From IMG/VR virus record IMGVR_UViG_3300010397_000043, positions 23,529 to 87,528 of that record: a stretch of DNA of 64,000 nt. One strand, given 5' to 3'. The translations under genes and the position numbers were made by a program. Shown here piece by piece: positions 2,591 to 51,571 of the stretch. Positions within the stretch are counted from its first letter, which is position 1. Each line of letters begins with the position of its first letter. Under the pieces are notes generated by a model that was not told the origin of the DNA, searched no databases, and was given only the letters and a program-made list of their open reading frames with translations. This DNA is from a virus.

Positions 2591-2597
2591 TTGCACC

Positions 2598-5102: not shown

Positions 5103-5120
5103 TTGTAACTAGGGTTTACC

Positions 5121-5480: not shown

Positions 5481-5488
5481 AGGTCCTC

Positions 5489-7093
5489 CTACAAAAAGAA
5501 CAGGCTCGATTCGGTGACCGGGGGCTTGCCCTCCTCCGGCTTCTCGTAGAAACCGCCCGTAGCCATCACAGCAGCGACCATGGGGTCGATACGGGCGCTC
5601 GACTTCGCCTTCTCGAGCTTGCGGTTCTTGGCTGGGTCGAGCGCGACGACCGCGTTAGCCGCCGCCATGTTGAGCAGAGGGTTGTCGCCGTGGGCGAGCT
5701 TTTCCTCCAGTAGCAGTGTCTCGAAAAACTCGACGCGCGGCGACATGTCACGAAAGCCCTGGCCCACCGAGTACCACTGGTCTTCGGGCAGGTCCTGCAG
5801 AAAGCCCTCGGCCGCAGCATCCATCTTGAATTGGCTGATGCGCCACCGGTCGAAGTGCAGGCCGGCAATGCGCATGCCAGTCAACTGCATCTTGAGGTAC
5901 TGGCAGACCATGGCGTAGCTGATGATGCGCCCAGGCAGCGCGATCAGGTGGCCTTGCTTCACCCAGGTCTCGTACGGAACCCGGTCTTGCTTGGCCCGCT
6001 CACGCAGGCCCACGATGGGCGTGAATGCAAAGCACTTGAGGTGCATGACGCCAGTGTCGGGGTGCCGGGCCGCAAGCACCGCCGCAGTCAAGTCCCGGTT
6101 CTGCGACAGGTCGAGTCCGATATGCACGTCCACGCCGCTTGTGAACAGGTCCTCGTCCACCTCGCCGGCTGCGGTCTTCCAGACGCTGGGGGCCACGAAC
6201 AGGGTCAACAGCGAAATGCGCTGGTTCAGGTACAGGTTGCGGAACGTCGGCTCGAAGGAGCTGATGCGCCTAGCCCGCTCGGCGGCTTCCTTGAACTCCT
6301 TCTCACTGCGGAACTTGCCCAGTGCGAAGTTCACGGTCTGCCACACCACCGGGTCGAAGATGTCGGAATCTTTCGCCGCTGCGTACAGCCGAAGAACCGT
6401 TTCCGGCGTCGGGTTCATCATCGCGTCGTCGATCAGCACACTCAGCAGGTCTGTATCACTTGCGGCCTGCGTGCTGATGATCAGCGATAGGGGTTCGTGC
6501 TGCGCGCCACCGGCGGTTTCCAGGGCGTCGTACAGTCCATCCACCGGGCCAATCACCTGCCCCAGTTCGTCGTGGATGGTCAAGGCCGGGGACAAGCCGT
6601 GAGCCGTGGTCGCATCCGCGCTCAGCGCCCGGTAGACCGTTCCCATCGCAAGGCCCTTGATGGTCTTGTACGAATCGGTGATCTGTACCAGATTGCCCAG
6701 GTCGTTGCGCAGCCGAAGTGACTTGGCGAGGTAGTTGAAAATCAGCGCCGCTTGGTCCCGACTGCGAGCCGCAGAGTACAACTGAGCGTTGGCCCTGGCT
6801 TCGGGTCCGATCAGGTGCCCCGCCAGAAGGGCCGCAATCAGGCCCGTTTTCCCATTCTTACGGGCAATCGACAGGATGCCCCGCCGAGTAATCAGGGCCC
6901 CGAGCGGGTCCACGTTGTCATATACAGCCTCAACGAAGTCGGTCTGCTCCGGTAGCAGCACCATCGGTTGCCCGACCAGCATGCCGTCTGGCACGAGGAT
7001 GTACTTCTCGATGAACCGCTGCATGCGCGAGGCACGCAGGGAACTGACCAGCGGCTTCTGCGCCGGTAGAGCAGCTTTGCGGCGAGGCATCAC
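5489..7093 (-). CDS. terL: Terminase large subunit
   Basis: Walker A IARKNGKT, Walker B IHDELG, coupling motif IISTQ, nuclease motifs GLDLS and RIDPMVA. Confidence 0.96.
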   Translation of the reverse strand: MMPRRKAALPAQKPLVSSLRASRMQRFIEKYILVPDGMLVGQPMVLLPEQTDFVEAVYDNVDPLGALITRRGILSIARKNGKTGLIAALLAGHLIGPEARANAQLYSAARSRDQAALIFNYLAKSLRLRNDLGNLVQITDSYKTIKGLAMGTVYRALSADATTAHGLSPALTIHDELGQVIGPVDGLYDALETAGGAQHEPLSLIISTQAASDTDLLSVLIDDAMMNPTPETVLRLYAAAKDSDIFDPVVWQTVNFALGKFRSEKEFKEAAERARRISSFEPTFRNLYLNQRISLLTLFVAPSVWKTAAGEVDEDLFTSGVDVHIGLDLSQNRDLTAAVLAARHPDTGVMHLKCFAFTPIVGLRERAKQDRVPYETWVKQGHLIALPGRIISYAMVCQYLKMQLTGMRIAGLHFDRWRISQFKMDAAAEGFLQDLPEDQWYSVGQGFRDMSPRVEFFETLLLEEKLAHGDNPLLNMAAANAVVALDPAKNRKLEKAKSSARIDPMVAAVMATGGFYEKPEEGKPPVTESSLFFL

Positions 7094-7632
7094 TGCACCA
7101 TGCGGGGCGGCAAGCCAGACGCACCGGCCAGCAGGCTATCGTCACCGTCGTCGCCGTCTTCGTTGATCTGTTTGGCGGCGCTCGTGGCGTTTTTCTTCTT
7201 TTGCTGCTGAGCCTTGTCGTTGTCAATGTCAAACCGGGAGGTCGGCTGCGCACGCAGCTTCGTGGACAGCGACATCAGCCGGGTCTCGGCGATGCTGCGC
7301 ACCACGATCTTGGGGTTCACGACCATGTCCCCCTTGGCGTTCTCGATGAGGTCGCCTTCTTCCTGAATCTGCTTGTCCAGCCGGTCGATATCTGCCGCCG
7401 CTCGGCAGTACAACTTCAAAAGCGGGTGGTCGCCCTTGTTGAAGTAGTCGTGCGGCTTGGAATTTACAAGCTCACACCAGTACTTCTTATGTGCTTCGGG
7501 CAGGCCCGGCGGGAACGGGTAGACAGGCACGTCGGGATTGGCCTCGATCTCAAGCGCGGCCTTCAATTCTGTGCCTTTACGATCCCCATAGGTCCCAGCC
7601 TTCTTGGCGGGCGTTTTCTTGGCGGCGGGCAT
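7090..7632 (-). CDS. terS: Terminase small subunit (P27-like)
   Basis: PPGL...W...LLKLYC...VVNP...LRAQPTSR; ATGA overlap with terL. Confidence 0.85.
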   Translation of the reverse strand: MPAAKKTPAKKAGTYGDRKGTELKAALEIEANPDVPVYPFPPGLPEAHKKYWCELVNSKPHDYFNKGDHPLLKLYCRAAADIDRLDKQIQEEGDLIENAKGDMVVNPKIVVRSIAETRLMSLSTKLRAQPTSRFDIDNDKAQQQKKKNATSAAKQINEDGDDGDDSLLAGASGLPPRMVQ

Positions 7633-7633
7633 G

Positions 7634-7939
7634 TTAAGAGCCTTTCTCGATATGGATGGGATAGCCGTCTTCGCCAGTAATGACCCAGCGTTCGACAGGA
7701 GCAGCTTGGCGCGAGTCTAGCTTGCCAGTCTTCTGCGAGTGGTGCCTCTTGCACAGGCCGCGAAAGTTGCGCGGGTCGAGCGGGGCACCACCCTTGTTGA
7801 TGGCGATTATGTGGTCCACCTCTGCCGCACGTGTCTGCAGTCGCAGCAGTGTGCAGACCTGGCACCAGGGGTTTAGGCGCAGGTACTTCCCCCGGGCGTC
7901 GCGCCACTGTCGGGAGGTGTAGAACGAATCGTGCGGCAT
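7634..7939 (-). CDS. HNH endonuclease, terminase cofactor (HK97 gp74-like)
   Basis: FYTSRQWR, CQVC, VDHIIAI, NFRGLCKRHHSQKT. Confidence 0.92.
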   Translation of the reverse strand: MPHDSFYTSRQWRDARGKYLRLNPWCQVCTLLRLQTRAAEVDHIIAINKGGAPLDPRNFRGLCKRHHSQKTGKLDSRQAAPVERWVITGEDGYPIHIEKGS

Positions 7940-8124: not shown

Positions 8125-8195
8125 TCGTTTAAAAACGTGGCCGGCGGCGGCAATTTCGGTTTTGTTAAATTTTCTTTTTTACCCGCCCCCCCGCT
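8125..8195. other. Putative cos (cohesive end) region
   Basis: Minus strand GGGGGGGCGGGTAAAAAAG...TTGCCGCCGCCGGCCACGTTTTTAAA: a GC core between A/T tracts, upstream of HNH/terS, as in cos phages. Exact cut position unknown. Confidence 0.5.
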
Positions 8196-8868
8196 CTTTT
8201 CTGCAAAATATTCCGCACTCTTTTCTGCACTCTTTACAGCGAATCGAGTGCGAGTGCATCGCGTGCGATAGGTCGGGTGCGTGCCCCTCGTGTGCGAGTG
8301 TGTCGTGTGCGATAGGTGCGGCACTGCACCACACACCAGGGCGGGGGCACCAGGGCGAAGGGCGGGCCCGAGTGCTCGGCTCGTAAGCACGAAACAGCGC
8401 AGCATTACAAGCCCTGTAACCTAGGGGTACAGTGTGGCACGGTATATGCAAAGGCAAGTACCGGTCCACGTTAGTACACACTTCGTAAACGGGGCAGTGC
8501 CGGCGGGCACCCTTGCGAAACGGGCGCAGGCAACGCGAACGGGCATGCGCCAAGGGTGTATGCACACATGCGCCGATGCGCGCCAGGGCGGGCCCGCTAG
8601 GGGCCTTTGCGGGCATGGCCGAAAATGGCTAATCGTTGTGCGGCACAGCATGTGTAACCGATCCCCCTTAAATGCGGGGGGTGGTGCAACACAGGGTTTG
8701 TAATGCCCTGCCCTGTCGCCTAGGGTATGCGTGGGGGCGCCCATTGGGCCCCCTGGGCAGGGGCCCTAAGCCCCACCCCCTCGCAGCTTTAACAACCTAG
8801 TGCCACGCAACCATAGGGGGTTCGCATGGGCCCGCCATTCGCGCACCTAGCACGAAGGCAGGCACACC

Positions 8869-9321
8869 ATGGCAACCACCAAGCAAACCACGAAGCAAAC
8901 GAACCAAGCGCGCGCCGCACTGGCGCAGCGCGCATCGAAGGCGAAGGCGAAGGCTGCGAAGCCTGCGCCCGTCGAAGTCGAGGCCGACGAAAGCGAAGTC
9001 GAGGCCGACGAAGGCAACGAAGGCGGGTCGCAATGGGCCCGCGAACGCGAGCGCATCGCCGATGGCAAGGGCAGTGGGCAGCGGTTTACCGCACTCGCCG
9101 CCGCGATGCTCGAAGCGCAGCAAGCCGGCAAGTCGCATGCGACCTTTGCCGACATTGCGCAACGCACGGCAGCGCACACGCGCAACGGCAAGGCCCTTAC
9201 CCGCACCAGCGTTGCAAGCTGGCGCACATTGCTGCAGCGCGCGAAGCAAACGCCCCTTGGGCCCGACCTTGCGAATGTGCGTATCGACGAAACCGGCTTT
9301 TCGTTCGCGAAGGCCGAGTAA
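8869..9321 (+). CDS. Hypothetical pre-early protein (Ala/Lys-rich N-terminus, possible HTH)
   Basis: AAGGCAGGCACACC leader before ATG; coherent ORF ending in TAA. Confidence 0.7.
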   Translation: MATTKQTTKQTNQARAALAQRASKAKAKAAKPAPVEVEADESEVEADEGNEGGSQWARERERIADGKGSGQRFTALAAAMLEAQQAGKSHATFADIAQRTAAHTRNGKALTRTSVASWRTLLQRAKQTPLGPDLANVRIDETGFSFAKAE

Positions 9322-9488
9322 GCAAACCCCGCTGCGAAGGCCCCTAACGGGCCCGTAGCGGGCCCCGTAGTACCCGAGCAGTACCCCAGGGCCCCACAGG
9401 GCCCGCAACGCCCCAAAACCCGCGCGAATCGATGCGGGCCCATGCGAACCCCTAGTGCGTGGCACACACCCCATACGAAAGGCAAACC

Positions 9489-9629
9489 ATGCGCAACCTA
9501 CGAACCCTCGCAACCGCGCTCGCACTTGTGCTCGCCGCACTCGCGCCCGCGCTACTCGGCGCAATGCTCGCACCCGACACAACGGGCGCACACGCATTCG
9601 CGCTACTGCTACTGCAACCCCCGCACTAG
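9489..9629 (+). CDS. Small hydrophobic peptide (46 aa)
   Basis: GAAAGGCAAACC-ATG; MRNLRTLATALALVLAALAPALLGAML...; below the ORF-track length cutoff. Confidence 0.5.
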   Translation: MRNLRTLATALALVLAALAPALLGAMLAPDTTGAHAFALLLLQPPH

Positions 9630-9640
9630 CGAGGCACACC

Positions 9641-9769
9641 ATGGGCACCCACCTTGCAAACTTCGTTGCGTGGCAGTGCTATCGGGCCTTTACCTTCGCC
9701 CGAATCGAGCACGCTGCGTACTGCCCCATTAACCCGCTGCAGCGGCTCGCGCGCTGGCAGCGCCACTAA
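9641..9769 (+). CDS. Small hypothetical protein (42 aa)
   Basis: GAGGCACACC-ATG leader shared with neighbouring ORFs. Confidence 0.45.
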   Translation: MGTHLANFVAWQCYRAFTFARIEHAAYCPINPLQRLARWQRH

Positions 9770-9831
9770 GCCCCCAAGGCCCGCGCAACGCGGGCCGCTA
9801 CGGGCCCACCAGGGCCCACGAAAGGCACACC

Positions 9832-10155
9832 ATGCGCACCCCGTACACACCCTGTGCAGCCGACCCCATGCCCTGCCGACTCGGCGCGCTGCGCACCCCG
9901 CCAGCGCGGCCCACTGCCAAGCAAGTCGAAGCGCACGCGAATTTGCAATTCGAGTTAGCCGACTGGCAATACACCCCGTATACGCTGGCACGCTTCGACA
10001 GCTTCGACTGGCGCGGCGAACTCGAAAGCGAAATCGGCGCCGACGACTGGCCCGCACCCGAAGCGCCACACCAGGGCCGCACACCCCCGCGCTTCGACAA
10101 CGCCGACGAAAGCTTCGCGACATGGGCTGGCATCGATGCCAGCCACGACGAGTAA
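9832..10155 (+). CDS. Hypothetical acidic pre-early protein
   Basis: GAAAGGCACACC-ATG; followed by a terminator. Confidence 0.65.
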   Translation: MRTPYTPCAADPMPCRLGALRTPPARPTAKQVEAHANLQFELADWQYTPYTLARFDSFDWRGELESEIGADDWPAPEAPHQGRTPPRFDNADESFATWAGIDASHDE

Positions 10156-10174
10156 AGCCCCCACGCACCCCCTT

Positions 10175-10213
10175 ACGCCCCGACAGGCATACCCTGTCGG
10201 GGCGTTTTGCTTT
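10175..10213 (+). terminator. Rho-independent terminator
   Basis: ACGCCCCGACAGG-CATAC-CCTGTCGGGGCGT-TTTGCTTT. Confidence 0.85.
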
Positions 10214-10241
10214 GTGCTGCAAGTTTTGCCGGTAGAGTTTC

Positions 10242-10430
10242 GTGCAGAAATCGGTGCAGTAAAGAATTCTTTGCAGAAAATCTTGCAGAAATTGTAGATT
10301 TTGCAGAAAATCTTGCAGAAATTTTTTCTGCAAAGAATTCTTGAAAAAATCTCTGTAAAAATTTCTTGCATGAGTTCTGCTGGGTACCGGGAATTCTGCA
10401 ATCCTCTTAAGAGATTTTCAGAAACTTTTC
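10242..10430. repeat. AT-rich cluster of TGCAGAAA/TTCTGCA short repeats
   Basis: Many copies in both orientations, e.g. TTTGCAGAAAATCTTGCAGAAATT twice. Confidence 0.8.
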
Positions 10431-10828
10431 GTCAGAGATCCCGGCAGACCCTATAGGGCCGACTTTGCGAAACTCTATTTCGCTAAAGGCCAAACCCTGC
10501 AGAAATGGCGCTCGCCCTGGGCGCTTCGCAGGGCCCGATTTGTAACAATCGACCGATTTAAACGCCCTAGGCGCGATTTAAACGGGGTGGGGTGCCACTA
10601 CCCCCTTAGCCATGCCCGAAAAACGCCCATGGGGCCCGATTTAGGGCCTTGGCGCGGCATCGGCCTATGTGCCCGACCCCCTACCCCGCAAATAGGGCCC
10701 AAAACGGCCCTAGGCATGAGGGTTCGCCCGCAGGCATGAAAAAACCCCTGGTGGCCGAGGCCAGCCAGGGGCAAACTCACACGAAAGGTGCCGACACTCC
10801 TGCAGCGGTCGGCGGGCTGCAAACTTCC

Positions 10829-14934: not shown

Positions 14935-15046
14935 GTTCACTCTCCTTCGTGTGGTTGGGTCTGCTCGTACAGCTTGGCGAAGTAGTCTGCGACGGGGTCT
15001 GGCACGAGCAGGCCGATTACGAACCCGAGCAGCACGACGATGGCTT

Positions 15047-15691
15047 TCATGCACGACTCCTCTTGTGGGCGGTTTTCTTGGCCGGCGTCGGCGTGTGCAG
15101 TTGGGCACGCACAACCTCAGGCGAGCACACGAAACCCTTGCCGTCGTACCGCCGCCGAATCTTTACCGAATTCTTCGACCGGCCAGGGGCCACACCGACG
15201 ACCTCATACACCTTGTCGTGCAGCACGATTTCTGCGCCGTACCACTCTGGTTCGAGCCCGATGGCCGGCGCCCACCTCTCGAAGTCGTCGCGGGCCTGCG
15301 TCGCCAGCGCGCCAGGGTCGGCCACCTTGACCTGCAACTTGAACGTGGCCTGGAGGTCATCGAACGTCGCACCCCCGCACGAAATGGTCACCTTGTGCTT
15401 GGCCCCAACTGCGGCCAGGGCAGCGTCGATATCTGTACGAAGCTGGCGAAGAACATCGCGGTCGATTCGGTTGGTGGTCATGGTGGTAACTCCGGTTGTC
15501 AGGTCGAGTCGGTAGGTGGTGGTCGGGCGCTGCGCGTTGTTGGCCTTGCTCTTGCAGCAGGGGCCAATGTCTCGCCCGTAGGGGTGCGCGTCGCTAGGCT
15601 CTTCGTACAGCAAGTCCTGTATGCGCACCCAGCCTCTGCAAATGTGGCAGTGCTGCCACTGCACGCCGTTCTCGTCGATTACGCCGCTCAT
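15047..15691 (-). CDS. Hypothetical protein with N-terminal CxxC module and a second in-frame start at 15481
   Basis: AAGGAG RBS at the first ATG and GGAG before MTTNRID. Confidence 0.7.
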   Translation of the reverse strand: MSGVIDENGVQWQHCHICRGWVRIQDLLYEEPSDAHPYGRDIGPCCKSKANNAQRPTTTYRLDLTTGVTTMTTNRIDRDVLRQLRTDIDAALAAVGAKHKVTISCGGATFDDLQATFKLQVKVADPGALATQARDDFERWAPAIGLEPEWYGAEIVLHDKVYEVVGVAPGRSKNSVKIRRRYDGKGFVCSPEVVRAQLHTPTPAKKTAHKRSRA

Positions 15692-15762
15692 GGTGGTTGC
15701 TCCTTAGTCGTCGTTGTCTACCCATCGGGCGACCGGGCCAAGCTCTTGGCAAAGCTTCATAT

Positions 15763-16065
15763 TCACTCTCCTTCGACAGGGCCAAGGTCGATGCCGAGCA
15801 ACGACTTGTGCAGCGGGTCGCTCTTAAACTCCTCGACCGAAGCAAACGGGCCGATGTAGTCGTTCTGCACGTCCCATTCGCCACCGCCCATGTAGCAAAA
15901 GTCCACGGCGACGAACTCCCCTGGTTTCTCTTCGTCGGCGAACAAGATGCCAAACCAGTCTTTGGCCTTGCGCACTGCGAGCGCCTTATCGAGCGTAAAG
16001 TCCTCGCGAAAGCCGTAACCCTCGAACGCATCGCGCACGCCAGCCGGTATGTTCAGCTTTGCCAT
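15763..16065 (-). CDS. Hypothetical protein
   Basis: AAGGAG RBS before MAKLNIP. Confidence 0.7.
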   Translation of the reverse strand: MAKLNIPAGVRDAFEGYGFREDFTLDKALAVRKAKDWFGILFADEEKPGEFVAVDFCYMGGGEWDVQNDYIGPFASVEEFKSDPLHKSLLGIDLGPVEGE

Positions 16066-16280
16066 GTTCACTCTCCTTTGCAGCACTCAACCTGCGCCAA
16101 ACTCAACGGGTACACCTCTGTTTCTGTACACACCCAATTTGGCGAACAGGTTTCATGCACAAGCCGGCGAGCATAGCCCTGCCGGCGCCAGTGGTTCAGG
16201 CTCTCGACAGCCTGCGCTTTGTCTGCCCAAGTGCTAAGTCGAATCATCTTTTGCCACGACGGCATACACGTAAACGGTTT

Positions 16281-16715
16281 TCATGCTTGGCCTCGCTTCG
16301 CCTTGAGTTGGGGGGCATCGGGCATCGCGCCCGGGGTGGGGCTATGCCGCTCGAAACGCCACGCGGGGCCCGCTTGCGGGGCGTAGGTGGGGGGCAGGGG
16401 TGCCCCGCGCGCTTTGCGGGCCTTGGCAGGGCGCGCAGGGGCCTTGGCAGGGGCAGGGCGGGGGGTGTACCCCTCGCCCCCTGCGCCACGCAATACGCGC
16501 GACGCACGCGAGCGCGGCGCGCACCCTTCGAGGGCCGCAAGGTTCAGCGGGCCGGTGGGGGGTTGCACCTCGCGCTTCTGCACTTCGACCAATTCGCCTT
16601 CGACTTCTTCGACGGCCAAAGTCACGATGGTCGTGCTGGTGTGGTTGTACACAACGCAGGGCCCGCTCTGCTGTTGGGCCTTGCGCCACGACGGGGCAAT
16701 TTTTCTGTTGCTCAT
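16281..16715 (-). CDS. Hypothetical protein with Pro/Arg-rich C-terminus
   Basis: AAGGAG RBS. Confidence 0.6.
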   Translation of the reverse strand: MSNRKIAPSWRKAQQQSGPCVVYNHTSTTIVTLAVEEVEGELVEVQKREVQPPTGPLNLAALEGCAPRSRASRVLRGAGGEGYTPRPAPAKAPARPAKARKARGAPLPPTYAPQAGPAWRFERHSPTPGAMPDAPQLKAKRGQA

Positions 16716-16728
16716 TGGTCGGTACTCC

Positions 16729-16986
16729 TTACAGGCACTGCAGCAGGTTGCGGTAAAACTCAGCGAACAAAACCGAGGTCTTCGGCTTCGGGCCTTCGCA
16801 TGCGAACACTTGCGCGTAGTCGTCGGCAGGCATCGCGACGAGTTCTGCTTCGATGGCGTCGAGTTCTCGCCCGGTAAAGCCGACCGTTACGCGCTCGAAT
16901 GCGCCTTGCGCTTCGTTGCGGTCGTAATCGCACTCCACCAGCGTGTCGCCGCACAGTTGCAAAATCTTGGCGTACTTCATGTTCAT
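16729..16986 (-). CDS. Hypothetical protein
   Basis: AAGGAG RBS. Confidence 0.7.
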   Translation of the reverse strand: MNMKYAKILQLCGDTLVECDYDRNEAQGAFERVTVGFTGRELDAIEAELVAMPADDYAQVFACEGPKPKTSVLFAEFYRNLLQCL

Positions 16987-16997
16987 GGCGATGCTCC

Positions 16998-17327
16998 TTA
17001 GCGGCTAAAGTTCACGACGGCGACCATTTGTGCGCGCCCCTCGGGCGTGCGCCACATGGCAACGATGGCGGCGTAGTCCTCTTGGCTCAGGCCCTGGTAG
17101 CACGCGCCCGACCACGCGGGGTCCATGCGGTCAGCATCGATGCAAAGCTCTGCGATGCCTTCTTGGTCGGGCTCGGCGAGGCCGAGTGCTTCGAGGCCTT
17201 CGTACAGGTCTGGCGCAATGGCGCAGTACACGTGGTATGCCGCCTCGTACCACTTCTCGAGCAAGGTCTGTGGCCTTTCGAGCCGAACCGGCTTCTTGGC
17301 AGGCAGCTTTCGCTTGGCGATGCTCAT
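16998..17327 (-). CDS. Hypothetical protein
   Basis: AAGGAG RBS before MSIAKRK. Confidence 0.7.
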   Translation of the reverse strand: MSIAKRKLPAKKPVRLERPQTLLEKWYEAAYHVYCAIAPDLYEGLEALGLAEPDQEGIAELCIDADRMDPAWSGACYQGLSQEDYAAIVAMWRTPEGRAQMVAVVNFSR

Positions 17328-17329
17328 GG

Positions 17330-17530
17330 TCAGGCTCCTTGCTCTTCGACGATGCGTGCGGCACCCGGGCCGTACACGTCTACGTTGCGGTCGTCCTCTG
17401 CCAGTCTGGCGTCGAGGTATGCCTGGGCTTGCGCACGGGTGTCGAAACGCCGAGCGCCGAAGCGGGGGGTCCGCCACACGCGCCGCGTGCCCGCAGCGTT
17501 GGCGTTGCGAAACTGAATTACGAACTTCAT
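17330..17530 (-). CDS. Hypothetical protein
   Basis: Tight operonic packing. Confidence 0.6.
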   Translation of the reverse strand: MKFVIQFRNANAAGTRRVWRTPRFGARRFDTRAQAQAYLDARLAEDDRNVDVYGPGAARIVEEQGA

Positions 17531-17532
17531 GG

Positions 17533-17922
17533 TCAGGCCCCTTCGCGCTTGGTGTAGGTGCCGACTGCACTCGTGGGTTCTTCGGCGGTGGCGGCAGCGG
17601 GTGCCTCAGCCGGCAAGTCGATACGCACGAACCCCGCGCGCAGCATGTCGTGCCACATGCGGCGCGCATCGGCGACAGCGAACACGCCGTTGGGTTCATC
17701 CTCACACCGCCAGTTGGTCGCGCGAATGCGCACCCATTCGGGGTGGCCCTTCACGTGCTCGAAGGTGGCCGACACTGCCCACCACTCGCTCTGGTATTCG
17801 AGCCGCCAAGCGGGCCCGTCGTCGAGTTGCACTTCTGGCGAGTACAAGTTCACCGCCTCGCGCATCGTGTGCGCGTACTGCCGCACTAGCGCGCTGGCCT
17901 TTTGGTGGCCTTCTGTTCTCAT
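17533..17922 (-). CDS. Hypothetical protein (first gene of early block)
   Basis: CACACGAAAGGCAGG leader before MRTEGHQ. Confidence 0.65.
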   Translation of the reverse strand: MRTEGHQKASALVRQYAHTMREAVNLYSPEVQLDDGPAWRLEYQSEWWAVSATFEHVKGHPEWVRIRATNWRCEDEPNGVFAVADARRMWHDMLRAGFVRIDLPAEAPAAATAEEPTSAVGTYTKREGA

Positions 17923-18021
17923 GTTTGCCTGCCTTTCGTGTGTGCCGTGCGCACCGTGCGCGCGACACTCGAAGGGTACAACGGTTGTAATGTGACTAGC
18001 AACGCCCATGGGCGCGTGTCG

Positions 18022-18036
18022 ATTACCAGTGGTAAT
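18022..18036. repeat. ATTACC-N3-GGTAAT palindrome, copy 2
   Basis: ATTACCAGTGGTAAT upstream of the minus-strand early block. Confidence 0.9.
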
Positions 18037-45954: not shown

Positions 45955-46261
45955 GCACCACACTCCAGACGCTACCAAACAACCAGCAGGAAATGCTGCG
46001 CCTATGTGCGCTGATTGAAGACAAGGCCAAAGCCGAGGCAAGGCGGCGCAACGGCGCTTCCGACTGGTATGGCGACGGCAATACGCCCGAGAGCGTTGCG
46101 CCTGCAGAGATGGCGCTCGTGAAGCTGGTGCGCGCTACGATGACGAACACGTTGTTCCAATACGAGGCATGCGAGAAGCACAGGCACTTGCCAATCACGC
46201 TTCGGGTAACCTGCGTGCCGCCCATAAACGTGGTGTGTCCGCACTGTCTGGAGGGAAAGCC

Positions 46262-47179
46262 ATGAGCACGCTCGACCTGGGGCCCTTCGTGCCCGAGCGC
46301 ATCGACGAGTGGGCGTACTGGTGCAAGGCCCGCGAGCAAATCCGGCGTCGCCGCGAAGCCGGCAAGCCTCCGCCCTGGCACAGCGACCCAGTGATGGCAA
46401 CGACCCGCTGGTGTAACTGCAAACGCATGAACGATAAGGTGAGCGTTTGGCTCATGCAGAACTGGTACACGCCCGGGTCCATGAACCGACGCGACGCGCT
46501 GATCGCAGCGTTGATGGCGCGCATGATCAACAGAACGGACACGCTGGCGTACATGAACAGCGGCGACCCTTACGCTAGGTGGGACTACGATAAGTTCTAC
46601 AAGCGCATGTATGAGTTGAAGAACGAAGGCTTCGTTGTGTTCACGAACGCATACATCATCAACGGCGCGAGCGGCGGGCCCAAGATTGACCAAGTGCTCG
46701 GGGCCATCGACAAGGCAGCGAAGATGATGGGCAACGACCGCAACGCATCGCGCTTCGTGGACCCCGACAGCCTGCAAATTACCGCTGGTAATCTGCACGT
46801 GCTTCCCGGGGTCGGCAGCTTCATCAGTGGGCAAGTCGTGGCGGACCTGCGCTGGGTGATTGATACCGACCGCTGGGCCGACCGCATGACCTGGGCCCCG
46901 CCTGGGCCGGGTTCGTCGCGGGGCATGAAGTACCTGCTGGGCCAAGTGAGCGCCGAGGGCACCGTCGGGCGTGGAAAGGACATGGGCGAGCGCGAGTTTC
47001 TGAAGCACCTGCGCTTGCTTGTCCGCATCGCCGAGCGGCACAATGTGGTGGGGCCGATTTTTGCCGAGCGGCAACTCGAAGCGCACGACATTCAAAATAC
47101 GTTGTGCGAGCTGAGTAAATACATTCGGGTGAGCTATGGCCTGGGTCGGCCCAAGAACTTCTACCATGCCAAGGAATAG
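46262..47179 (+). CDS. 5-hmdU DNA kinase (aGPT-Pplase1 family)
   Basis: REQIRRRREAGKPPPWHSDPV...WCNCKRMNDK, FTNAYII, GVGSFISGQVVADL, GPGSSRG, DIQNTLCELSKY. Confidence 0.85.
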   Translation: MSTLDLGPFVPERIDEWAYWCKAREQIRRRREAGKPPPWHSDPVMATTRWCNCKRMNDKVSVWLMQNWYTPGSMNRRDALIAALMARMINRTDTLAYMNSGDPYARWDYDKFYKRMYELKNEGFVVFTNAYIINGASGGPKIDQVLGAIDKAAKMMGNDRNASRFVDPDSLQITAGNLHVLPGVGSFISGQVVADLRWVIDTDRWADRMTWAPPGPGSSRGMKYLLGQVSAEGTVGRGKDMGEREFLKHLRLLVRIAERHNVVGPIFAERQLEAHDIQNTLCELSKYIRVSYGLGRPKNFYHAKE

Positions 47180-47183
47180 ACCA

Positions 47184-47330
47184 ATGGAACGCGACGATGA
47201 CGCCTACTTTGCCGGGCGCGCTGCCTGGGAGGACGGGCTGGACGAAAGCGCAAACCCGTACCCAGAGCGGTCGGACAAGTTCCTCGACTGGAACGACGGG
47301 TACAACGACGCAGCCGACGAAGAGGAGTAA
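47184..47330 (+). CDS. Small Rmf-like fold protein
   Basis: AYFAGRAAWEDG...NPY......WNDGY. Confidence 0.6.
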   Translation: MERDDDAYFAGRAAWEDGLDESANPYPERSDKFLDWNDGYNDAADEEE

Positions 47331-47877
47331 CCGATGTCCATCTGTACCATTTGCCACACCAACACGATCCCGGGTGGCCGGTCGCGCTACTGTGCCACGT
47401 GCGCTTCGGACGACCAGGACAAGTTTGACACACGGGTCATGGAGAAGGCCACTGCCGCCCCGCCCCTGGACCTGCCCGACGACAACCTGGACGACTTGAT
47501 TACGGCACACACCACAGCGCACGGCCACGCGCCGACCGGGGATGCCGAGCTTCGGGCCTTCGCCCGCGCTGCCATCAACGCTGACCGTACACGGGGGTAA
47601 TCATGTGGTGGAGCACCAACGCGAAGACCCCCGTGCCGGGAATGCGTGCTCGGACGAACGTGGAACTGTTGCCCCCGCCTGTGAACATCCCGCCGATGCC
47701 CGGTGTACGCGAGGCGATCCCACAGCTTCTCGAAGCTGGCAAGGCGATTGGGCGAGGGATTGATGCGTGGAACCCAGCGCAGGTTGAAGACGCCATTCGA
47801 TCCGCGCGGTTTTTCATGGAACGAGCTGAGCGCGCCCTCGAAGTGGGCCGACCCAAGACCGAACCCAAGGAGTAATC

Positions 47878-48498
47878 ATGATCGACGACTTTTTCCCGCT
47901 GGGTGTGCCGACCAACCGACTGGCCGCAGACCCGAACGAAATCCCTGCCTGGGTCAAGCCCGAATTGCGGGCCCGCATCCTCGCCGCCCGCAAGGACCGC
48001 GAGCCCATGCGCTACACACCGCCGTGCGCCTTGGAGGCAGAAGCCGCGAGTGTGAAGGCGGCGATGACTGCACTCATTGACTATGCGCTCAGGGGGCTCG
48101 GGCCTGTGACGCTCGAAGAGACAACGGCGATCATAAAGGCCAAAGAAAAGTCGGCAGTAGAGTCCTTCACTGCCCTCAACGGTGGGCCCAAGAGCTTTGC
48201 TACTGGTGGGGTGGTAACGATCAGGGCATTCGGGACTATAGCCGAAGAGCCCAAAGCGGGGCGCGGCTTCACCCAGGTGACCGGGCGTGCCAGATACGCA
48301 GCACCTTTAGTCCGCCGCGTCGGCTGGTGGCAGACCTCGCCCAATTACATGCGCTATTGGGATGGGGAGACATTCTCCTTTCCGCGCGAGATCGATGACT
48401 ATGGCGCGTGTTTGTCCGCGGCTACGGTAGAAAGCACGTGCAGTGTCCCCCGCGTTGAGAACATGGTCCATCAGTACGAGAACTTCATCGGGGAATGA
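47878..48498 (+). CDS. Hypothetical protein
   Basis: AAGGAG RBS; GWW...MRYWDG motif near the C-terminus. Confidence 0.7.
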   Translation: MIDDFFPLGVPTNRLAADPNEIPAWVKPELRARILAARKDREPMRYTPPCALEAEAASVKAAMTALIDYALRGLGPVTLEETTAIIKAKEKSAVESFTALNGGPKSFATGGVVTIRAFGTIAEEPKAGRGFTQVTGRARYAAPLVRRVGWWQTSPNYMRYWDGETFSFPREIDDYGACLSAATVESTCSVPRVENMVHQYENFIGE

Positions 48499-48739
48499 GC
48501 CATGGCGACCAAAGAAGACGTGCGCCACGCACTCACGCTCGTTGCCGACAGTCGCCAGCGATTCATCGCGGCTGTCGGGTACGCGATCAGTAAAGCCAAG
48601 ACCGAATTCGAGGCAGAGACCGGGCTTGTGATTACTGACGTGGACGTTGTCATCAGCTCGTACCAGTATGTTAGGGATTACACAGCCAGCTCAATCCTGT
48701 CGAACGTCGCCATTCGTACCAACATCGAAAGGGCCAGTC

Positions 48740-49570
48740 ATGGCACGCCACAAAGCACCTGACCCCGATACGCTCGACTCGTGGCAGAAGTTCACGGCCA
48801 ATCTGTTTCCGAGCTACGACGCGGACCCGGGGTACTACGCCATTCAACTGGCCGAAATAACCGAGGCGCAGAAGCGCCGACTGGCGGTGGCGTGGACTTC
48901 GTTTTACCAGCTAGGTCACGCGGCCAAGGCCAGCGAGTATGAAGGGGCGCAGTTCTACCACTACCTGCATTCCGTGTACCCCACGGCGCAGCGGGGCAGC
49001 GAACGACGGCACTTCCGTGGCGAGCAGGGGTTGCGGGCGCTGACAGAATGGCAGGCCAAGTTTAATCATCCGGAAAAGATGGCGTGGTACATCTGTGAGA
49101 ACTCGCACTCGTACTCCGATGTACGCAAGAAGACAGACACCATCCGCTCATACGGCGACTATTTCGCATGGAAGTGGTGCGACTTGGCCGAGGTGCTGTA
49201 CGGTACGACTATCGACTTCACGGGCGCTGAGGACAGGTCGCCCAAGGTGCCACAGCAAGGCGCGAAGCTGATCGCGCCCGATTTCACGGTGGCACAGACA
49301 TACGACATGATCGCCAAGCGTGCCCGAGCAAAGGGCGTGCGCTCGCCGGCCAATCTTGGTCGCGAGTTTGGCATTGGCGAGGCGGAGACGGTGTGCTGCG
49401 TCTACAAGCAATACCGGTCCGGCTCATATGTGTACGGTTCGCGGCTGGCAAAGGCAGTCGCGCGCCTGGAAAGCGTGCCCAGCAAGACCGGGCGCAAGCT
49501 GACCGAAGCACTTCTAGGAGTATCACCGTGGACGAGAGACGAGCTAAAGGGAATACTCGCAAGCCTTTAA
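48740..49570 (+). CDS. Amino acid:DNA transferase (aGPT-Pplase2/ADDT family)
   Basis: DADPGY, RGSERRHFRG, YGDYFAWKWCDLAE, EAETVCCVYK. Confidence 0.8.
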   Translation: MARHKAPDPDTLDSWQKFTANLFPSYDADPGYYAIQLAEITEAQKRRLAVAWTSFYQLGHAAKASEYEGAQFYHYLHSVYPTAQRGSERRHFRGEQGLRALTEWQAKFNHPEKMAWYICENSHSYSDVRKKTDTIRSYGDYFAWKWCDLAEVLYGTTIDFTGAEDRSPKVPQQGAKLIAPDFTVAQTYDMIAKRARAKGVRSPANLGREFGIGEAETVCCVYKQYRSGSYVYGSRLAKAVARLESVPSKTGRKLTEALLGVSPWTRDELKGILASL

Positions 49571-49783
49571 TCAACGTCGCCATCTTCTTGCGAAAGGCGC
49601 TGGCTCACGGTCACAAAGCAGAAGTCAAGCACTTGGTGTTGCCAGTAAAGGTGCTCGATCACGCCATGCTGGTGCTAAACGCCGCTGAGCAACTTGTCGC
49701 TATGCGTGCGGACGGCAACTGGTCGGACAAGCAGATCGTTGATTACATGGCCGGCGTACTGCTCGAAGACATGGAGGACTAGC

Positions 49784-50053
49784 ATGGTCACGAAGAAAAC
49801 GCCTGATGTGTCGCGCCAAGACAAGGTGCTCGATGTACTGCGGGGCTCGGGGCGCAAGCCGCCCAAGCGTGCCGGTACACAGATCGATTGCTACGTTTAC
49901 GAGGAAGGCACGTACACGATCCAGATAAACCGTCGGGTCATCGCGCAGGGCACGGGTGGCATGGTGCGAGCACGCAATCACGTGCAGAGCATCGTGAACA
50001 ACCTGCGACCCCCGCAGTCGAATAACTACACAGTCACGTACTACGAGGTGTGA
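49784..50053 (+). CDS. Hypothetical protein
   Basis: GGAGG RBS before MVTKKT. Confidence 0.65.
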   Translation: MVTKKTPDVSRQDKVLDVLRGSGRKPPKRAGTQIDCYVYEEGTYTIQINRRVIAQGTGGMVRARNHVQSIVNNLRPPQSNNYTVTYYEV

Positions 50054-50277
50054 CCATGGGTATCATCGTCGGCAATGAACCGCCGATTACGCACGAGGAG
50101 ATAATGCTCCTTGCTGACGCATTCGAGCGTTCTGCGAATTGGCTTGAACACGGAGTTCTAGCCGGGCCAGCCAGAACGCACCCGCTGGTTGGGTTGGCCG
50201 ACTACCGCAGGGCTTGCCTGATACTGCGCACTGCCGCCTGGGTGTGGGCATCGTCGAACACCGAAGGGTAGATGCCC

Positions 50278-50325
50278 ATTACCGCTGGTAATTTGTAACC
50301 GGCGCAGGCCATTACCGCTGGTAAT
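50278..50325. repeat. ATTACC-N3-GGTAAT palindrome, tandem copies 9 and 10
   Basis: ATTACCGCTGGTAAT at 50278-50292 and 50311-50325. Confidence 0.9.
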
Positions 50326-50351
50326 CTGGTTCAACATTCAGGGAGACGAGT

Positions 50352-50906
50352 GTGACCGAAGTGTGGCGAGAAGTGCCGGGCGACCGCCTGGGGCTCGAAG
50401 TGAGTTCACTGGGCCGACTACGCAGGCCGGCGACAACTAGTGCGGCGGGCAGTAGGCTAAAGGCGCGGGAACTCGCACAGACCATTGATGGTGAAGGGTA
50501 CGTGCGAACTTCCGCGTCTGCGACTTGCGGGGTCGTATACGTTCACAGGCTTATCGCACTGGTTTTTATCGGCCCACCACCGACACCAGCACACACCGAC
50601 GTCAACCATAAGAATGGTATAAAAACCGACAACCGGTGGCAAAATCTAGAATGGGCTACGAGAAAGCAGAACATGCAGCACGCAGTTAGTATGGGGTTGG
50701 CCCCTCGTGGTGAACAAAATGGCCGGGCGAAGATGTCAGCGTACACAGCGATGACGGTCTACTGGCACTATCACGTCGGGGGTGCGACTCAAGCTGCTCT
50801 GGCGCGGGATTTCGAGCTGACGAGAAACCAAGTTCGTGGGTTAATCCACGGCAAAACTTGGAAACACGTCACAGATAAATTTCCTGAATGGGGGTACGTG
50901 TCATGA
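50352..50906 (+). CDS. NUMOD4-HNH homing endonuclease
   Basis: EVWREVPG..EVSSLGR, VHRLIALVF, VNHKNGIKTDNRWQNLEW. Confidence 0.9.
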   Translation: MTEVWREVPGDRLGLEVSSLGRLRRPATTSAAGSRLKARELAQTIDGEGYVRTSASATCGVVYVHRLIALVFIGPPPTPAHTDVNHKNGIKTDNRWQNLEWATRKQNMQHAVSMGLAPRGEQNGRAKMSAYTAMTVYWHYHVGGATQAALARDFELTRNQVRGLIHGKTWKHVTDKFPEWGYVS

Positions 50907-51502: not shown

Positions 51503-51571
51503 CAGTTTGTTCTTAGCCGGACGTCCGGCTAAAATGGGGGCTCCACCTACCCCACACGGAGCCCCTACAAA

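What the first reader, a model, noticed from the sequence alone, without database searches (positions are those of the whole stretch)
8234..10233. 2-kb genome-end island purged of TCA/TCC/TCT on both strands
Seen: reading base by base I found only two TCH or DGA trinucleotides in 8234-10233 (TCC at 8465 and 8662) and none in 8665-10233. TCG/CGA stays abundant here, and TCH is common elsewhere in the window. The four ORFs obey the rule too: RBSs are AAGGCA/GAGGCA instead of the AGGAG used by most other genes, and stops are TAA/TAG only. Shorter clean patches occur at about 10505-10716 and 16308-16543. Knowledge: the island abuts the probable cos on the side away from the terminase genes, the end that is packaged last and ejected first in lambda-like phages. 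Inference: strong selection on first-entering DNA, either to avoid a host TC-targeting defence (DarT-type thymidine ADP-ribosylation, a TC deaminase, GA-containing R-M/BREX sites) or to keep pre-early genes free of the phage's own context-specific T hypermodification. The ORFs are candidate anti-defence genes.
Basis: partly seen in the sequence, partly recalled or inferred. Interest (0 to 1): 0.9.

Follow-up and report, generated by a model that had tools for sequence, protein, structure and literature searches.

The report
Phage gene cassette lacking TCH words
A 2-kb block of small genes next to the DNA-packaging genes of an uncultured soil phage has almost no TCA, TCC or TCT on either strand. 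Distant relatives keep the same rule, so some enzyme probably reads this three-letter word (perhaps the phage's own thymine-modifying machinery), and this leader stretch is kept out of its reach.

Summary
Window 8234-10233 holds 2 TCH and 0 DGA, and 8663-10233 holds none where about 97 are expected. All 104 TC dinucleotides there are followed by G (P about 2e-45).

The island is one unit: a 635-nt leader, four orphan ORFs with a GGA-free ribosome-binding site, and a strong terminator. Inward-facing TTTCTGCA arrays bracket it. It lies about 80 bp from a probable cos site beside HNH/TerS/TerL.

New findings:
- A second 3-kb cassette (14936-17993) lacks TCH on its sense strand only (7 seen, about 77 expected).
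- 18 of 20 distant ORF-A homologues contain none of the dipeptides that a TCH/DGA-free gene cannot encode, so the rule is old and lineage-wide.
- Elsewhere in the genome the word is unusually evenly spaced.
- The island does not share the genome's strong avoidance of palindromes and CTAG.
- The phage carries a thymidine-hypermodification kit.

Best reading (0.4): TCH is the address read by a phage-lineage enzyme, most likely the 5-hmdU kinase pathway, and the leader cassette is kept free of it. A single-strand-specific TCH reader (an RNase or ssDNA enzyme) is a close rival.

The scan noted similar islands (VGA/TCB, RGA/TCY) in two other phage genomes.

The parts
5489..7939 (-). Context: packaging genes. 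HNH endonuclease 7634-7939, small terminase 7090-7632, large terminase 5489-7093.
   Evidence: Pfam HNH E 4e-07 and Terminase_4 E 9e-09, plus PHROG hits. TerL is 48% identical to HK97-group TerL.
8140..8160 (.). Probable cos or physical DNA end (weak evidence).
   Evidence: The position upstream of HNH-TerS-TerL is an inference. Logan contigs of run X1 stop at 8154 and restart at 8150, overlapping by only 5 nt. Two further breaks occur within 4 kb, so this is weak.
8195..8238 (+). Left array: two TTTCTGCA elements, rich in TCT, pointing into the island. The last plus-strand TCH is at 8231.
   Evidence: inverted repeat I1 with 10293-10336, 44 nt, 70% complementary; 3 of the genome's 4 TTTCTGCA copies lie in the two arrays.
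8234..10233 (.). TCH/DGA-free island: 2 TCC and 0 DGA, with a core of 1572 nt holding none.
8234..8868 (+). Leader of 635 nt without a convincing ORF. It contains GGGCCC and other palindromes, two 30-nt direct repeats (8244-8273 and 8288-8317) and both TCC exceptions.
   Evidence: Fold z-scores are -2.65 (+ strand) and -2.24 (- strand).
8869..9321 (+). ORF A, 150 aa: T/K/Q-rich N-terminus, acidic DE(G/A) run, C-terminal winged-helix-like domain. It founds a virus-only family.
   Evidence: 21 proteins at E<=0.001; pLDDT about 95 over residues 55-150; best hits are winged-helix domains, E>=0.06, none significant.
9489..9629 (+). ORF B, 46 aa, hydrophobic. The ribosome-binding site is GAAAGGCA.
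   Evidence: repeat D7; no family.
9642..9769 (+). ORF C, 42 aa. The ribosome-binding site is GAGGCA.
   Evidence: (repeat D10).
9832..10155 (+). ORF D, 107 aa, acidic, with no homologue beyond its own genome.
10175..10215 (+). Intrinsic terminator closing the island unit: 13-bp stem with 10 GC pairs, followed by a T-rich tail.
10234..10400 (.). Right array: five TGCAGAAA copies plus one inverted TTTCTGCA, AT-rich and dense in TCT/AGA. The first minus-strand TCH is at 10234.
10474..10777 (+). Second small clean patch: plus-strand TCH-free, and free on both strands over 10501-10717. It is non-coding, in the same GGGCCC-rich style, and lies between the array and the leftward operon's terminator (10762-10743, minus strand).
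14936..17993 (-). Block 2: about ten small orphan genes whose sense (minus) strand almost lacks TCH (7 seen, about 77 expected), while sense-strand DGA is normal. The first gene (ATG at 17922) has the island-type GAAAGGCA ribosome-binding site.
   Evidence: No Pfam or PHROG family for the 7 block-2 genes scanned (10 proteins given, 3 of them from beyond the block).
18022..18036 (.). ATTACC-N3-GGTAAT palindrome just upstream of block 2. The purge starts about 30 nt downstream of it.
   Evidence: 13 copies in the genome.
46169..52633 (+). Thymidine-hypermodification gene set: HMUDK_hel 46169-47179, amino acid:DNA transferase 48647-49570, 5-hmdU DNA kinase 50888-51502, thymidylate-synthase homologue 51572-52633.
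   Evidence: Pfam PF18723 E 1.3e-41, PF18724 E 7e-20 and PF00303 E 4.5e-16, PF18748 E 5e-07.

Best explanation
The island is a self-contained gene cassette: leader, four small genes and a terminator. It lies at the genome end that is probably packaged last and ejected first. It is written so that the word TCH never occurs on either strand.

TCH is the address read by an enzyme that belongs to this phage lineage. The best candidate is the 5-hmdU DNA kinase and amino-acid:DNA transferase pathway, which turns selected thymines into hypermodified bases. Under this reading the bulk genome carries an evenly spread coat of marked T at TCH. The leader cassette enters the cell as the only stretch of ordinary, unmarked DNA. 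The neighbouring early cassette is unmarked on its non-template strand.

Shown: the purge, its exact word, its unit boundaries, its conservation and the presence of the kit.

Inferred: that the kit's context is TCH, that this end enters first, and why unmarked DNA is needed. One possible reason is to keep first-expressed genes clear of modification-dependent host nucleases, or of exposed marked bases, until early proteins are made.
For: 1. The word is exact and symmetric. TCA, TCC and TCT (and their complements) each form an independent desert at the same place, while TCG rises.
2. The phage encodes a dUMP-hydroxymethylase homologue, two 5-hmdU-kinase family proteins and an amino-acid:DNA transferase.
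3. [quoted passage not shown] Restriction-resistant sites of M6, ViI and phiW-14 are enriched in TG/TC, which the authors attribute to the kinase (passages of PMC6449724). The exact motifs are said to be unknown (PMC5889632).
4. The word is conserved in the lineage. 18 of 20 non-self ORF-A homologues (mostly 22-46% identical to ORF A) have none of the 23 dipeptides that a TCH/DGA-free gene cannot encode. Totals seen against shuffle means: [EKMQW][DE] 2 against 57.0, M[IKMNT] 0 against 9.5, W[IKMNT] 0 against 10.5. A reader that stays constant across a deep phage lineage is more easily phage-encoded than host-encoded.
5. In 44 bulk genes (43 kb), TCH/DGA sites pooled over both strands are more evenly spaced than in synonymous shuffles. 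The CV is 0.80 against 0.89 (z -5.6), and long gaps are 0.0047 against 0.013. This ranks 4th of 64 word sets by CV and 2nd of 64 by long gaps. Neither strand alone is even. That is what a duplex-level protective coat would give.
6. The island's limits match a transcription unit and inward-facing repeat arrays. Its genes point inward from the probable end.
Against: 1. Block 2 is purged only on the sense (non-template) strand and its template strand has normal TCH. A marked T that hindered transcription should be removed from the template strand. An extra assumption is needed, for example that only the displaced strand is exposed.
2. The island shows no avoidance of 6-mer palindromes (51 seen, 39 expected; bulk O/E 0.57) or of CTAG (7 seen, 6.1 expected; bulk 56 against 272). 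Unmarked DNA that enters first should avoid restriction sites more, not less.
3. Bulk palindromes that contain the word are not kept clearly better than those that do not (O/E 0.67 for 6 palindromes against 0.53 for 58; Mann-Whitney P 0.9).
4. Bulk TCH/DGA counts are 14% below the synonymous null, with TCC/GGA at 0.71-0.74.
5. Other word sets (GCB, GCV, GCH) are also under-dispersed.
6. YuA and two podoviruses carrying the closest transferase homologues show no such desert.
7. No modification data exist, and the first-entering end is inferred, not mapped.
Confidence: 0.4

Rival explanations
1. The reader is specific for single strands. An endoribonuclease, or an ssDNA-acting enzyme (nuclease, deaminase or ADP-ribosyltransferase), recognises U/TCH, and the first-expressed RNAs or their displaced non-template strands are written without the word. 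It could be encoded by the host or by the phage itself (a host-shutoff enzyme). The island would then be transcribed, or opened, on both strands.
For: - Block 2 is purged on the sense strand only: TCC 0.04x, TCA 0.11x, TCT 0.11x, TCG 1.44x, 7 seen against about 77 expected, P about 1e-24.
- That purge starts about 30 nt downstream of an operator-like palindrome and about 70 nt before the first ATG.
- Each strand's clean zone in the island begins right after an inward-facing copy of the same element.
- Further one-strand patches exist at 10474-10777 (plus strand) and about 14251-14500 (plus strand).
- Single-stranded nucleic acid is not cut by type II enzymes, which would fit the island's lack of palindrome avoidance.
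- From recall, not from any call: three-letter cleavage words with a degenerate third base exist among mRNA interferases (Kid/PemK UAH), and T4 endonuclease IV prefers TCA in ssDNA.
Against: - It needs antisense transcription or unwinding of the whole island, and no evidence for that was found. The scan found 0 sigma-70-like promoters.
- Avoidance of GGA on the sense strand is strong enough to reshape all four ribosome-binding sites, which is a heavy price for an antisense RNA.
- It does not explain the even spacing of the word on pooled strands in the bulk.
- I know of no enzyme with UCH/TCH specificity (recall only).
- Late genes carry the word at normal density.
Confidence: 0.33
2. One reading: a host defence that acts on double-stranded DNA at TC(H) or (D)GA. 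Candidates are DarT-type ADP-ribosylation, a TC deaminase, or GA-containing R-M/BREX sites. The first-entering DNA avoids the word until anti-defence genes are expressed.
For: - The island's position and gene orientation fit.
- There is precedent. Autographiviridae escape a type I R-M system when the motif is absent from the first-injected region (abstract of PMC12455610). T5 pre-early DNA is the part sensitive to EcoRI and CRISPR (passages of bioRxiv 10.1101/866236).
Against: - The same word is kept across a deep family from many samples, although host defences vary from strain to strain.
- Known DarT2 motifs are TYTN with the fourth base biased against G (passages of PMC13368585) and TNTC/TTTW (recalled). 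They do not fit: TTT is not depleted (9.6 against 8.4 per 1000), while TCA and TCC are.
- The terminal 80 bp carries 7 plus-strand TCH.
- Block 2 is purged on one strand only.
- The island is full of palindromes.
- No known R-M system reads a 3-nt degenerate word (recalled).
Confidence: 0.1
3. Self-immunity to a pre-early nuclease. A product of the island, or a co-injected protein, destroys host DNA at TCH while only the leader is inside the cell (a T5-like two-step entry). The rest of the genome waits in the capsid, and the repeat array acts as an injection stop.
For: - The purge on both strands is confined to a terminal unit that is followed at once by a dense array of direct and inverted repeats. 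This resembles the T5 injection-stop region as described in passages of bioRxiv 10.1101/866236.
- That preprint proposes that absence of sites in first-step DNA could explain how T5 spares itself.
Against: - None of the four island ORFs has a nuclease family hit, and none has an A1/A2/dmp homologue.
- ORF A looks like a DNA-binding winged helix, not a nuclease.
- The one-strand purge of block 2 is unexplained.
- An HK97-type terminase with HNH suggests cos ends, not long terminal repeats.
- The terminal 80 bp still holds TCH.
Confidence: 0.1
4. Not a biological feature: chance, local composition, low complexity or a mis-assembly.
For: - The island is GC-richer (0.65-0.67) than the window average.
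- Some smaller clean patches (16281-16544, 33207-33511) lie in GC-rich or Pro/Ala-rich stretches.
Against: - The probabilities are about 1e-43 to 1e-45.
- TCG is not depleted.
- The codon-matched null expects 52 sites in the ORFs.
- A second assembly of the same run agrees.
- The rule shows up in proteins from other samples.
Confidence: 0.01

Closest known systems
First-step-transfer (pre-early) DNA of phage T5 and its injection stop signal
   Same: A terminal block of small early genes, followed by an untranslated region crowded with direct and inverted repeats. The pre-early DNA is the part that must survive alone in the cell (abstract and passages of bioRxiv 10.1101/866236).
   Different: There is no homologue of A1, A2 or dmp. 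The block is 2 kb rather than about 10 kb. The terminase is HK97-type with HNH, which suggests cos ends rather than long terminal repeats. What is avoided is a degenerate 3-nt word, not a 6-bp site. Two-step entry has not been shown.
Restriction-motif avoidance in the first-injected region of Autographiviridae (Murciavirus against the Mme2I type I R-M system)
   Same: A motif that is present elsewhere in the genome is absent from the leading region, and that decides infection success (abstract of PMC12455610).
   Different: There the motif is a host type I R-M site that varies between isolates. Here the word is 3 nt long, is purged to zero over 2 kb at the cost of amino-acid choice and Shine-Dalgarno sequence, and is conserved over a deep phage family. 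The island is not depleted in palindromes.
Context-specific thymidine hypermodification (M6, ViI, phiW-14, SP10): dUMP hydroxymethylase, 5-hmdU DNA kinase, transferase
   Same: The same enzyme families are encoded here. T followed by C or G is the suspected context in those phages (passages of PMC6449724).
   Different: In my searches I found no printed description of a word-free island or a one-strand word-free cassette for these phages. YuA, a Yuavirus carrying the same kind of kit, has no desert. TG is not purged here.
dPreQ0 (7-deazaguanine) modification at GA motifs in phages CAjan and iggy
   Same: A phage-encoded enzyme marks DNA at a 2-3-nt word that contains GA (titles and abstract starts of PMC7544227 and PMC10484667, seen in search listings only).
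   Different: None of the 70 predicted proteins I scanned matched a family for purine or deazaguanine modification; the remaining predicted ORFs were not scanned. A purine mark on the DGA strand would fit block 2 better (a clean template strand) but has no enzyme to support it.
Strand-biased site distributions that defeat orientation-dependent enzymes (T7 and EcoP15I; recalled, from no call)
   Same: A word is present on one strand only over kilobases, as in block 2.
   Different: Those are 5-6-nt type III sites biased across a whole genome, not a 3-nt word absent from one strand of one gene cassette.

Membership tests
5-hmdU-derived thymidine hypermodification system | A thymidylate-synthase-like dUMP hydroxymethylase | tested here: met
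   51572-52633 matches PF00303 with E 4.5e-16. Hydroxymethylase rather than methylase activity is inferred from the neighbouring genes.
5-hmdU-derived thymidine hypermodification system | A 5-hmdU DNA kinase | tested here: met
   50888-51502 matches PF18748 with E 5e-07. 46169-47179 matches PF18723 with E 1.3e-41.
5-hmdU-derived thymidine hypermodification system | A transferase acting on phosphorylated 5-hmdU (amino acid:DNA transferase or aGPT-Pplase) | tested here: met
   48647-49570 matches PF18724 with E 7e-20. It has tblastn relatives in Rhodoferax phage P26218, PaMx11, YuA and phiW-14.
5-hmdU-derived thymidine hypermodification system | Hypermodified T in virion DNA, in the context TCH | not testable with these tools
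   No native-DNA data are available. The only run that holds the sequence is kept as contigs.
T5-type first-step-transfer DNA | Lies at the DNA end that enters first | tested here: inconclusive
   It is adjacent to HNH-TerS-TerL on the far side of the probable cos. Contigs break at 8150-8154, but there are two other breaks nearby. The direction of entry is inferred from lambda and HK97 (recalled).
T5-type first-step-transfer DNA | A repeat-rich cis element distal to the pre-early genes | tested here: met
   The 10234-10400 array of direct and inverted TGCAGAAA repeats comes directly after the terminator. Its function is untested.
T5-type first-step-transfer DNA | Pre-early proteins A1, A2 and dmp | tested here: not met
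   The four ORFs have no Pfam hit. The one PHROG hit is weak (E 0.04).
T5-type first-step-transfer DNA | Long direct terminal repeat | tested here: inconclusive
   The contig has no terminal repeat, and its last ORF runs off the end, so it may be incomplete. Contig depths cannot show a doubling.
Avoidance of DarT2 target motifs | Depletion of TYTN (fourth base biased against G), TNTC or TTTW | tested here: not met
   TTT is 9.6 against 8.4 per 1000, so it is not depleted. TCA and TCC are abolished although they are outside those motifs. The motif comes from passages of PMC13368585.
Avoidance of type II restriction sites in leading DNA | Fewer palindromic sites than the rest of the genome | tested here: not met
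   6-mer palindrome O/E is 1.3 in the island and 0.57 in the bulk. CTAG O/E is 1.1 against 0.2.
Transcripts free of mRNA-interferase sites | The word is absent from the sense strand only, within transcript limits | tested here: inconclusive
   This is met for block 2. The island lacks the word on both strands. No transcript maps exist, and no enzyme specific for UCH is known to me.

The most novel reading that the evidence does not exclude
A whole lineage of uncultured soil phages writes its first-expressed genes in a reduced DNA vocabulary without TCH. The reason would be that a lineage-encoded, strand-reading enzyme, the thymidine-hypermodification kinase, uses TCH as its address. If so, the island reveals by sequence alone the long-unknown context of a thymidine hypermodification. 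It also reveals a new genome design: an evenly marked body, an unmarked leader cassette, and a half-marked early cassette.
Probability: 0.35. Interest if true: 0.9.

Novelty: new variant of a known kind. Interest (0 to 1): 0.8.

Why it matters
The sequence contexts of thymidine hypermodifications are stated in print to be unknown (passage of PMC5889632). This island gives a precise prediction that can be tested: T in TCH but not in TCG.

It also shows that selection on a three-letter word can be strong enough to forbid 23 dipeptides and to rewrite ribosome-binding sites, and that the rule can be read from protein sequences alone. That gives a way to find such cassettes in metagenomes when only the proteins are available.

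Whichever reader is responsible, the cassettes mark genes that act before or outside it. They are therefore good candidates for takeover or counter-defence functions, and they are a natural 'unmarked' control region for studying how modified DNA is handled during infection.

Tried and rejected
Relatives at the DNA level
- ORF A and the alignments A1 and A3 found no locus in viral contigs, metagenome contigs or genome contigs.
- blastn of 8000-10500 against the phage collection found nothing.
- TerL brought 37 IMG/VR loci, at most 48% identical. Their longest TCH/DGA-free stretch is 143 nt, and they are not real relatives of this phage.
The contigs that encode P0002 (52,648 bp), P0013 (64,971 bp) and P0017 (52,916 bp) could therefore not be read. 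Conservation of the purge rests on protein sequences only.

Function
- Pfam and PHROGs gave nothing for the four island ORFs or for the ten leftward genes scanned, seven of them in block 2.
- The Atlas gave only unnamed viral clusters for ORF A at score 0.86, a lead only, and nothing usable for ORF D.
- Foldseek found no match at E<=0.001.
- Rfam gave only sub-threshold microRNA-like hits on the AT-rich array.
- The sigma-70 consensus scan found 0 promoters in either region, so transcript starts are not located.

Sequencing runs
- One DNA holder was listed, which is probably the source sample. No RNA holder was listed.
- Contig depths (9.8, 7.4, 3.2, 7.1) cannot show terminal redundancy, and parts without cover prove nothing.

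Tests of the modification reading that gave no support
- Bulk palindromes with and without the word do not differ.

Explanations considered and dropped
- Codon-level explanations (Ser UCH, or Arg/Gly/opal DGA codons and the phage's tRNA with anticodon TCA), because the purge ignores reading frame and covers non-coding DNA.
- A mutational (deaminase) origin, because TT/AA do not rise and GC is higher in the island.
- Avoidance of Rho-binding sites, because CCC is enriched.
- A primase recognition word, because the even spacing appears only when the strands are pooled.

Supplementary files of the papers were not consulted. They may hold motif data for M6, ViI or phiW-14.


Full report
**What is there.** The window is the last 64 kb of a single 87,528-bp contig. 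The contig has no terminal repeat, and its last ORF runs off the end, so it may be incomplete.

In 8234-10233 the only TCH are two TCC, at 8465 and 8662, and there is no DGA at all. From 8662 to 10234 neither occurs, a gap of 1572 nt. The next longest gap in the contig is 304 nt, and the genome density is 0.0619 sites per nt.

TCG/CGA is not depleted: 104 copies, or 33.3 per 1000, against 28.0 elsewhere. So every one of 104 TC dinucleotides is followed by G, although only 37% of the island's C are. That gives P of about 2e-45.

Each of the three complementary pairs (TCA/TGA, TCT/AGA, TCC/GGA) forms its own desert at the same place. Their scores are 47.5, 28.1 and 27.0; the next trinucleotide pair scores 12.4. 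Among 208 strand-specific 2- and 3-letter patterns, DGA (61.1) and TCH (39.2) rank first.

Synonymous recoding of the four ORFs predicts 52.4 sites, and 0 are seen. Logan contigs of the one public run that holds the stretch reproduce it without a difference.

**Anatomy.**
- *Left side.* On the minus strand lie an HNH endonuclease, a small terminase and an HK97-type large terminase.
- *The unit.* It consists of a 635-nt leader without a convincing ORF, then four plus-strand ORFs of 150, 46, 42 and 107 aa. Each ORF is preceded by an (A/G)AGGCA-type site in place of GGAG and ends in TAA or TAG. A 13-bp-stem terminator follows at 10175-10205.
- *Flanks.* Both sides carry AT-rich arrays of one element: TTTCTGCA on the left, its complement TGCAGAAA on the right. 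They form a 44-nt imperfect inverted repeat. 9 of the genome's 15 copies, counting both orientations, lie in these two arrays.
- *Limits by strand.* Plus-strand TCH stops at 8231 and resumes at 10268. Minus-strand TCH stops at 10234 and resumes at 8112. In both cases the clean zone begins just inside the innermost element.
- *Neighbouring operon.* The leftward operon to the right ends in its own terminator at 10762-10743. The island is therefore an isolated unit.
- *Probable end.* Logan contigs stop at 8154 and restart at 8150 with only 5 nt of overlap. Two more breaks within 4 kb make it weak evidence.
- *Direction of entry.* That this end is packaged last and ejected first is inferred from lambda and HK97 (recalled). 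The inward orientation of the four genes agrees with it.

**A second, one-strand cassette.** Counting the two strands separately shows that 14936-17993 almost lacks TCH on the minus strand, with gaps of 1210, 495, 479, 417 and 359 nt. The plus strand is normal there.

This stretch holds about ten small minus-strand genes, so the purged strand is the sense strand. On it, TCC is at 0.04x, TCA at 0.11x and TCT at 0.11x of the level in other genes' sense strands, and TCG is at 1.44x. No other trinucleotide changes more than two-fold. Seven sites are seen where about 77 are expected, P of about 1e-24. Sense-strand DGA is normal, and most of these genes use AAGGAG ribosome-binding sites.

The purge begins about 30 nt downstream of an ATTACC-N3-GGTAAT palindrome at 18022 and about 70 nt before the first start codon. 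That first gene alone has the island-type GAAAGGCA site. The purge ends within about 25 nt of the tenth gene's stop. The genes further left are only mildly depleted (ratios of about 0.5-0.9).

Whatever reads TCH therefore reads, or acts on, one strand at a time.

**The rule is old.** A gene without TCH or DGA cannot encode 23 dipeptides: [EKMQW][DE], [MW][IKMNT] and F[HPQ]. The genome's other predicted proteins need on average 2.7 such sites per 100 aa.

ORF A has a near-identical relative on another contig and two 45-46% relatives. A profile search of 1.84 billion representatives found 21 proteins at E<=0.001, including ORF A itself.

Of the 20 homologues that are not from this genome (one fragment was set aside), 18 contain no forbidden dipeptide. 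P0012 has one and P0020 has four. The totals are:

| Dipeptide class | Seen | Expected from shuffles |
|---|---|---|
| [EKMQW][DE] | 2 | 57.0 |
| M[IKMNT] | 0 | 9.5 |
| W[IKMNT] | 0 | 10.5 |
| F[HPQ] | 3 | 5.6 (not significant) |

For each of the first three classes, 0 of 5000 shuffles reach the observed value. The acidic runs are always written DE(G/A)DE, never EE or ED.

This shows that absence of DGA from the sense strand, with TGA and GGA each shown separately, is conserved in proteins mostly 22-46% identical to ORF A. The sense-strand TCH rule cannot be tested from proteins.

**What the phage encodes.** The window carries a thymidylate-synthase homologue, two 5-hmdU-DNA-kinase family proteins and an amino-acid:DNA transferase. 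This is the kit known from M6, ViI and phiW-14.

Passages of PMC8989533 and PMC5889632 say that 5-hmdU is converted 'in sequence-specific contexts' either to the hypermodified base or to thymine, and that the exact motifs are unknown. Passages of PMC6449724 report that restriction-resistant sites of those phages are enriched in TG/TC and attribute this to the kinase.

None of the 70 predicted proteins I scanned matched a purine-modification family. The remaining predicted ORFs were not scanned.

**Tests on the bulk genome.** In 44 genes (43 kb) outside the two cassettes, TCH/DGA sites pooled over both strands are more evenly spaced than in shuffles that keep each protein and its codon usage. 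The CV is 0.80 against 0.89 (z about -5.6), and gaps of at least four times the mean are 0.0047 against 0.013. Each strand alone is not even (z +0.75 and -1.5). Among 64 XY[HDBV] word sets, TCH ranks 4th by CV and 2nd by long gaps, and the GC-based sets are also under-dispersed. I count this as moderate support for a duplex-level role of the word in the bulk.

Against that role, there are 14% fewer sites than the null. In addition, the six 6-mer palindromes that contain the word are not clearly better kept than the other 58 (O/E 0.67 against 0.53, P 0.9).

**An unexpected contrast.** The bulk genome avoids 6-mer palindromes strongly, with O/E 0.57. CGATCG occurs 0 times against 48 expected, GTCGAC 0 against 43, and TTCGAA 0 against 27.5. 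It also avoids CTAG (56 against 272). The island does not avoid either: 51 palindromes against 39 expected, 14 of them GGGCCC, and CTAG 7 against 6.1. At the bulk's rate these island counts have P of 1e-7 to 1e-3. Block 2 is intermediate.

Naked DNA that enters first should avoid restriction sites most. This speaks against the simple restriction-exposure story and remains unexplained.

**Weighing the readings.**
- *Phage-encoded or host-encoded reader.* A reader that stays the same across a deep phage family, together with an evenly sprinkled bulk and a T-modification kit whose relatives prefer T before C or G, makes a lineage-encoded reader the best single explanation. The hypermodification kinase is the most likely candidate (0.4).
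- *Weak points of that reading.* These are the sense-strand-only purge of block 2 and the palindrome-rich island.
- *Single-strand reader.* A reader specific for single strands, acting on early RNAs or on displaced strands, explains block 2 and the strand-by-strand limits best. It needs the island to be transcribed or opened on both strands, and it does not explain the even bulk spacing (0.33).
- *Other readings.* A duplex-level host defence and a T5-style self-sparing nuclease are each about 0.1. An artefact is excluded.
- *Relatives without the feature.* The closest transferase-bearing phages in the collection (Rhodoferax P26218 and MW202557) and YuA show no comparable desert. The feature belongs to this lineage, not to every hypermodifying phage.

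**Relation to earlier notes of this scan.** Two other uncultured phage genomes were noted with islands free of VGA/TCB and of RGA/TCY. Even spacing was reported for one of them, and a failed palindrome test for the other. I took both tests from those notes and ran them on this genome. The spacing result holds here, and the palindrome test again shows no difference. These notes are leads, not independent evidence.

**Novelty.** I found no printed description of a modification-word-free or three-letter-word-free early cassette in four full-text searches. The nearest printed ideas are motif-free leading regions in Autographiviridae (abstract of PMC12455610) and the site-free first-step DNA proposed for T5 (passages of bioRxiv 10.1101/866236).

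Noticed in passing
window 1-8000 and 18200-64000 plus the upstream 23.5 kb of the contig, against 8234-10233: The bulk genome avoids 6-mer palindromes (O/E 0.57, several at 0 against 27-48 expected) and CTAG (56 against 272). The island does not (O/E 1.3; CTAG 7 against 6.1).
   Followed up: partly
8234-10800: GGGCCC is concentrated here. 14 of the genome's 68 copies lie in the island and 3 more in 10400-10800, mostly between genes and often in inverted pairs (for example 8817-8835 with 9434-9452, 19 nt, 100% complementary). Their function is unknown.
   Followed up: partly
14237-14515 (minus-strand gene): A patch with the opposite polarity. The sense strand has 1 DGA against 9.6 expected but normal TCH, so here the plus strand is the TCH-free one, over about 14251-14500. 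It could mark an antisense RNA.
   Followed up: no
38490-41414: The family-A DNA polymerase carries a LAGLIDADG-like stretch (Pfam E 1e-4, residues 440-489). This suggests an intein or a homing-endonuclease insertion.
   Followed up: no
14872-18746: The longest GATC-free stretch of the genome (3874 nt) overlaps block 2. It is at least partly a consequence of the one-strand TCH rule.
   Followed up: no
56383-56458 and 38134-38210: ARAGORN finds two tRNAs: Trp (CCA) and one with anticodon TCA, which it labels SeC. The island uses no TGA stop, but block 2 does.
   Followed up: partly
contig 1114-2616 (upstream of the window): Three adjacent predicted proteins (124, 255 and 106 aa) also need no obligatory TCH/DGA site, although their DNA has normal counts. 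This is probably an effect of amino-acid composition.
   Followed up: no
63547-63921 and the contig end: A stand-alone N-terminal domain of NAD-dependent DNA ligase (PF22745, E 4e-29) lies just before the contig end. The last ORF runs off the end, so the genome may be incomplete.
   Followed up: no
29009-29443: A small protein carries a TFIIS-type zinc ribbon (PF01096, E 8e-05).
   Followed up: no
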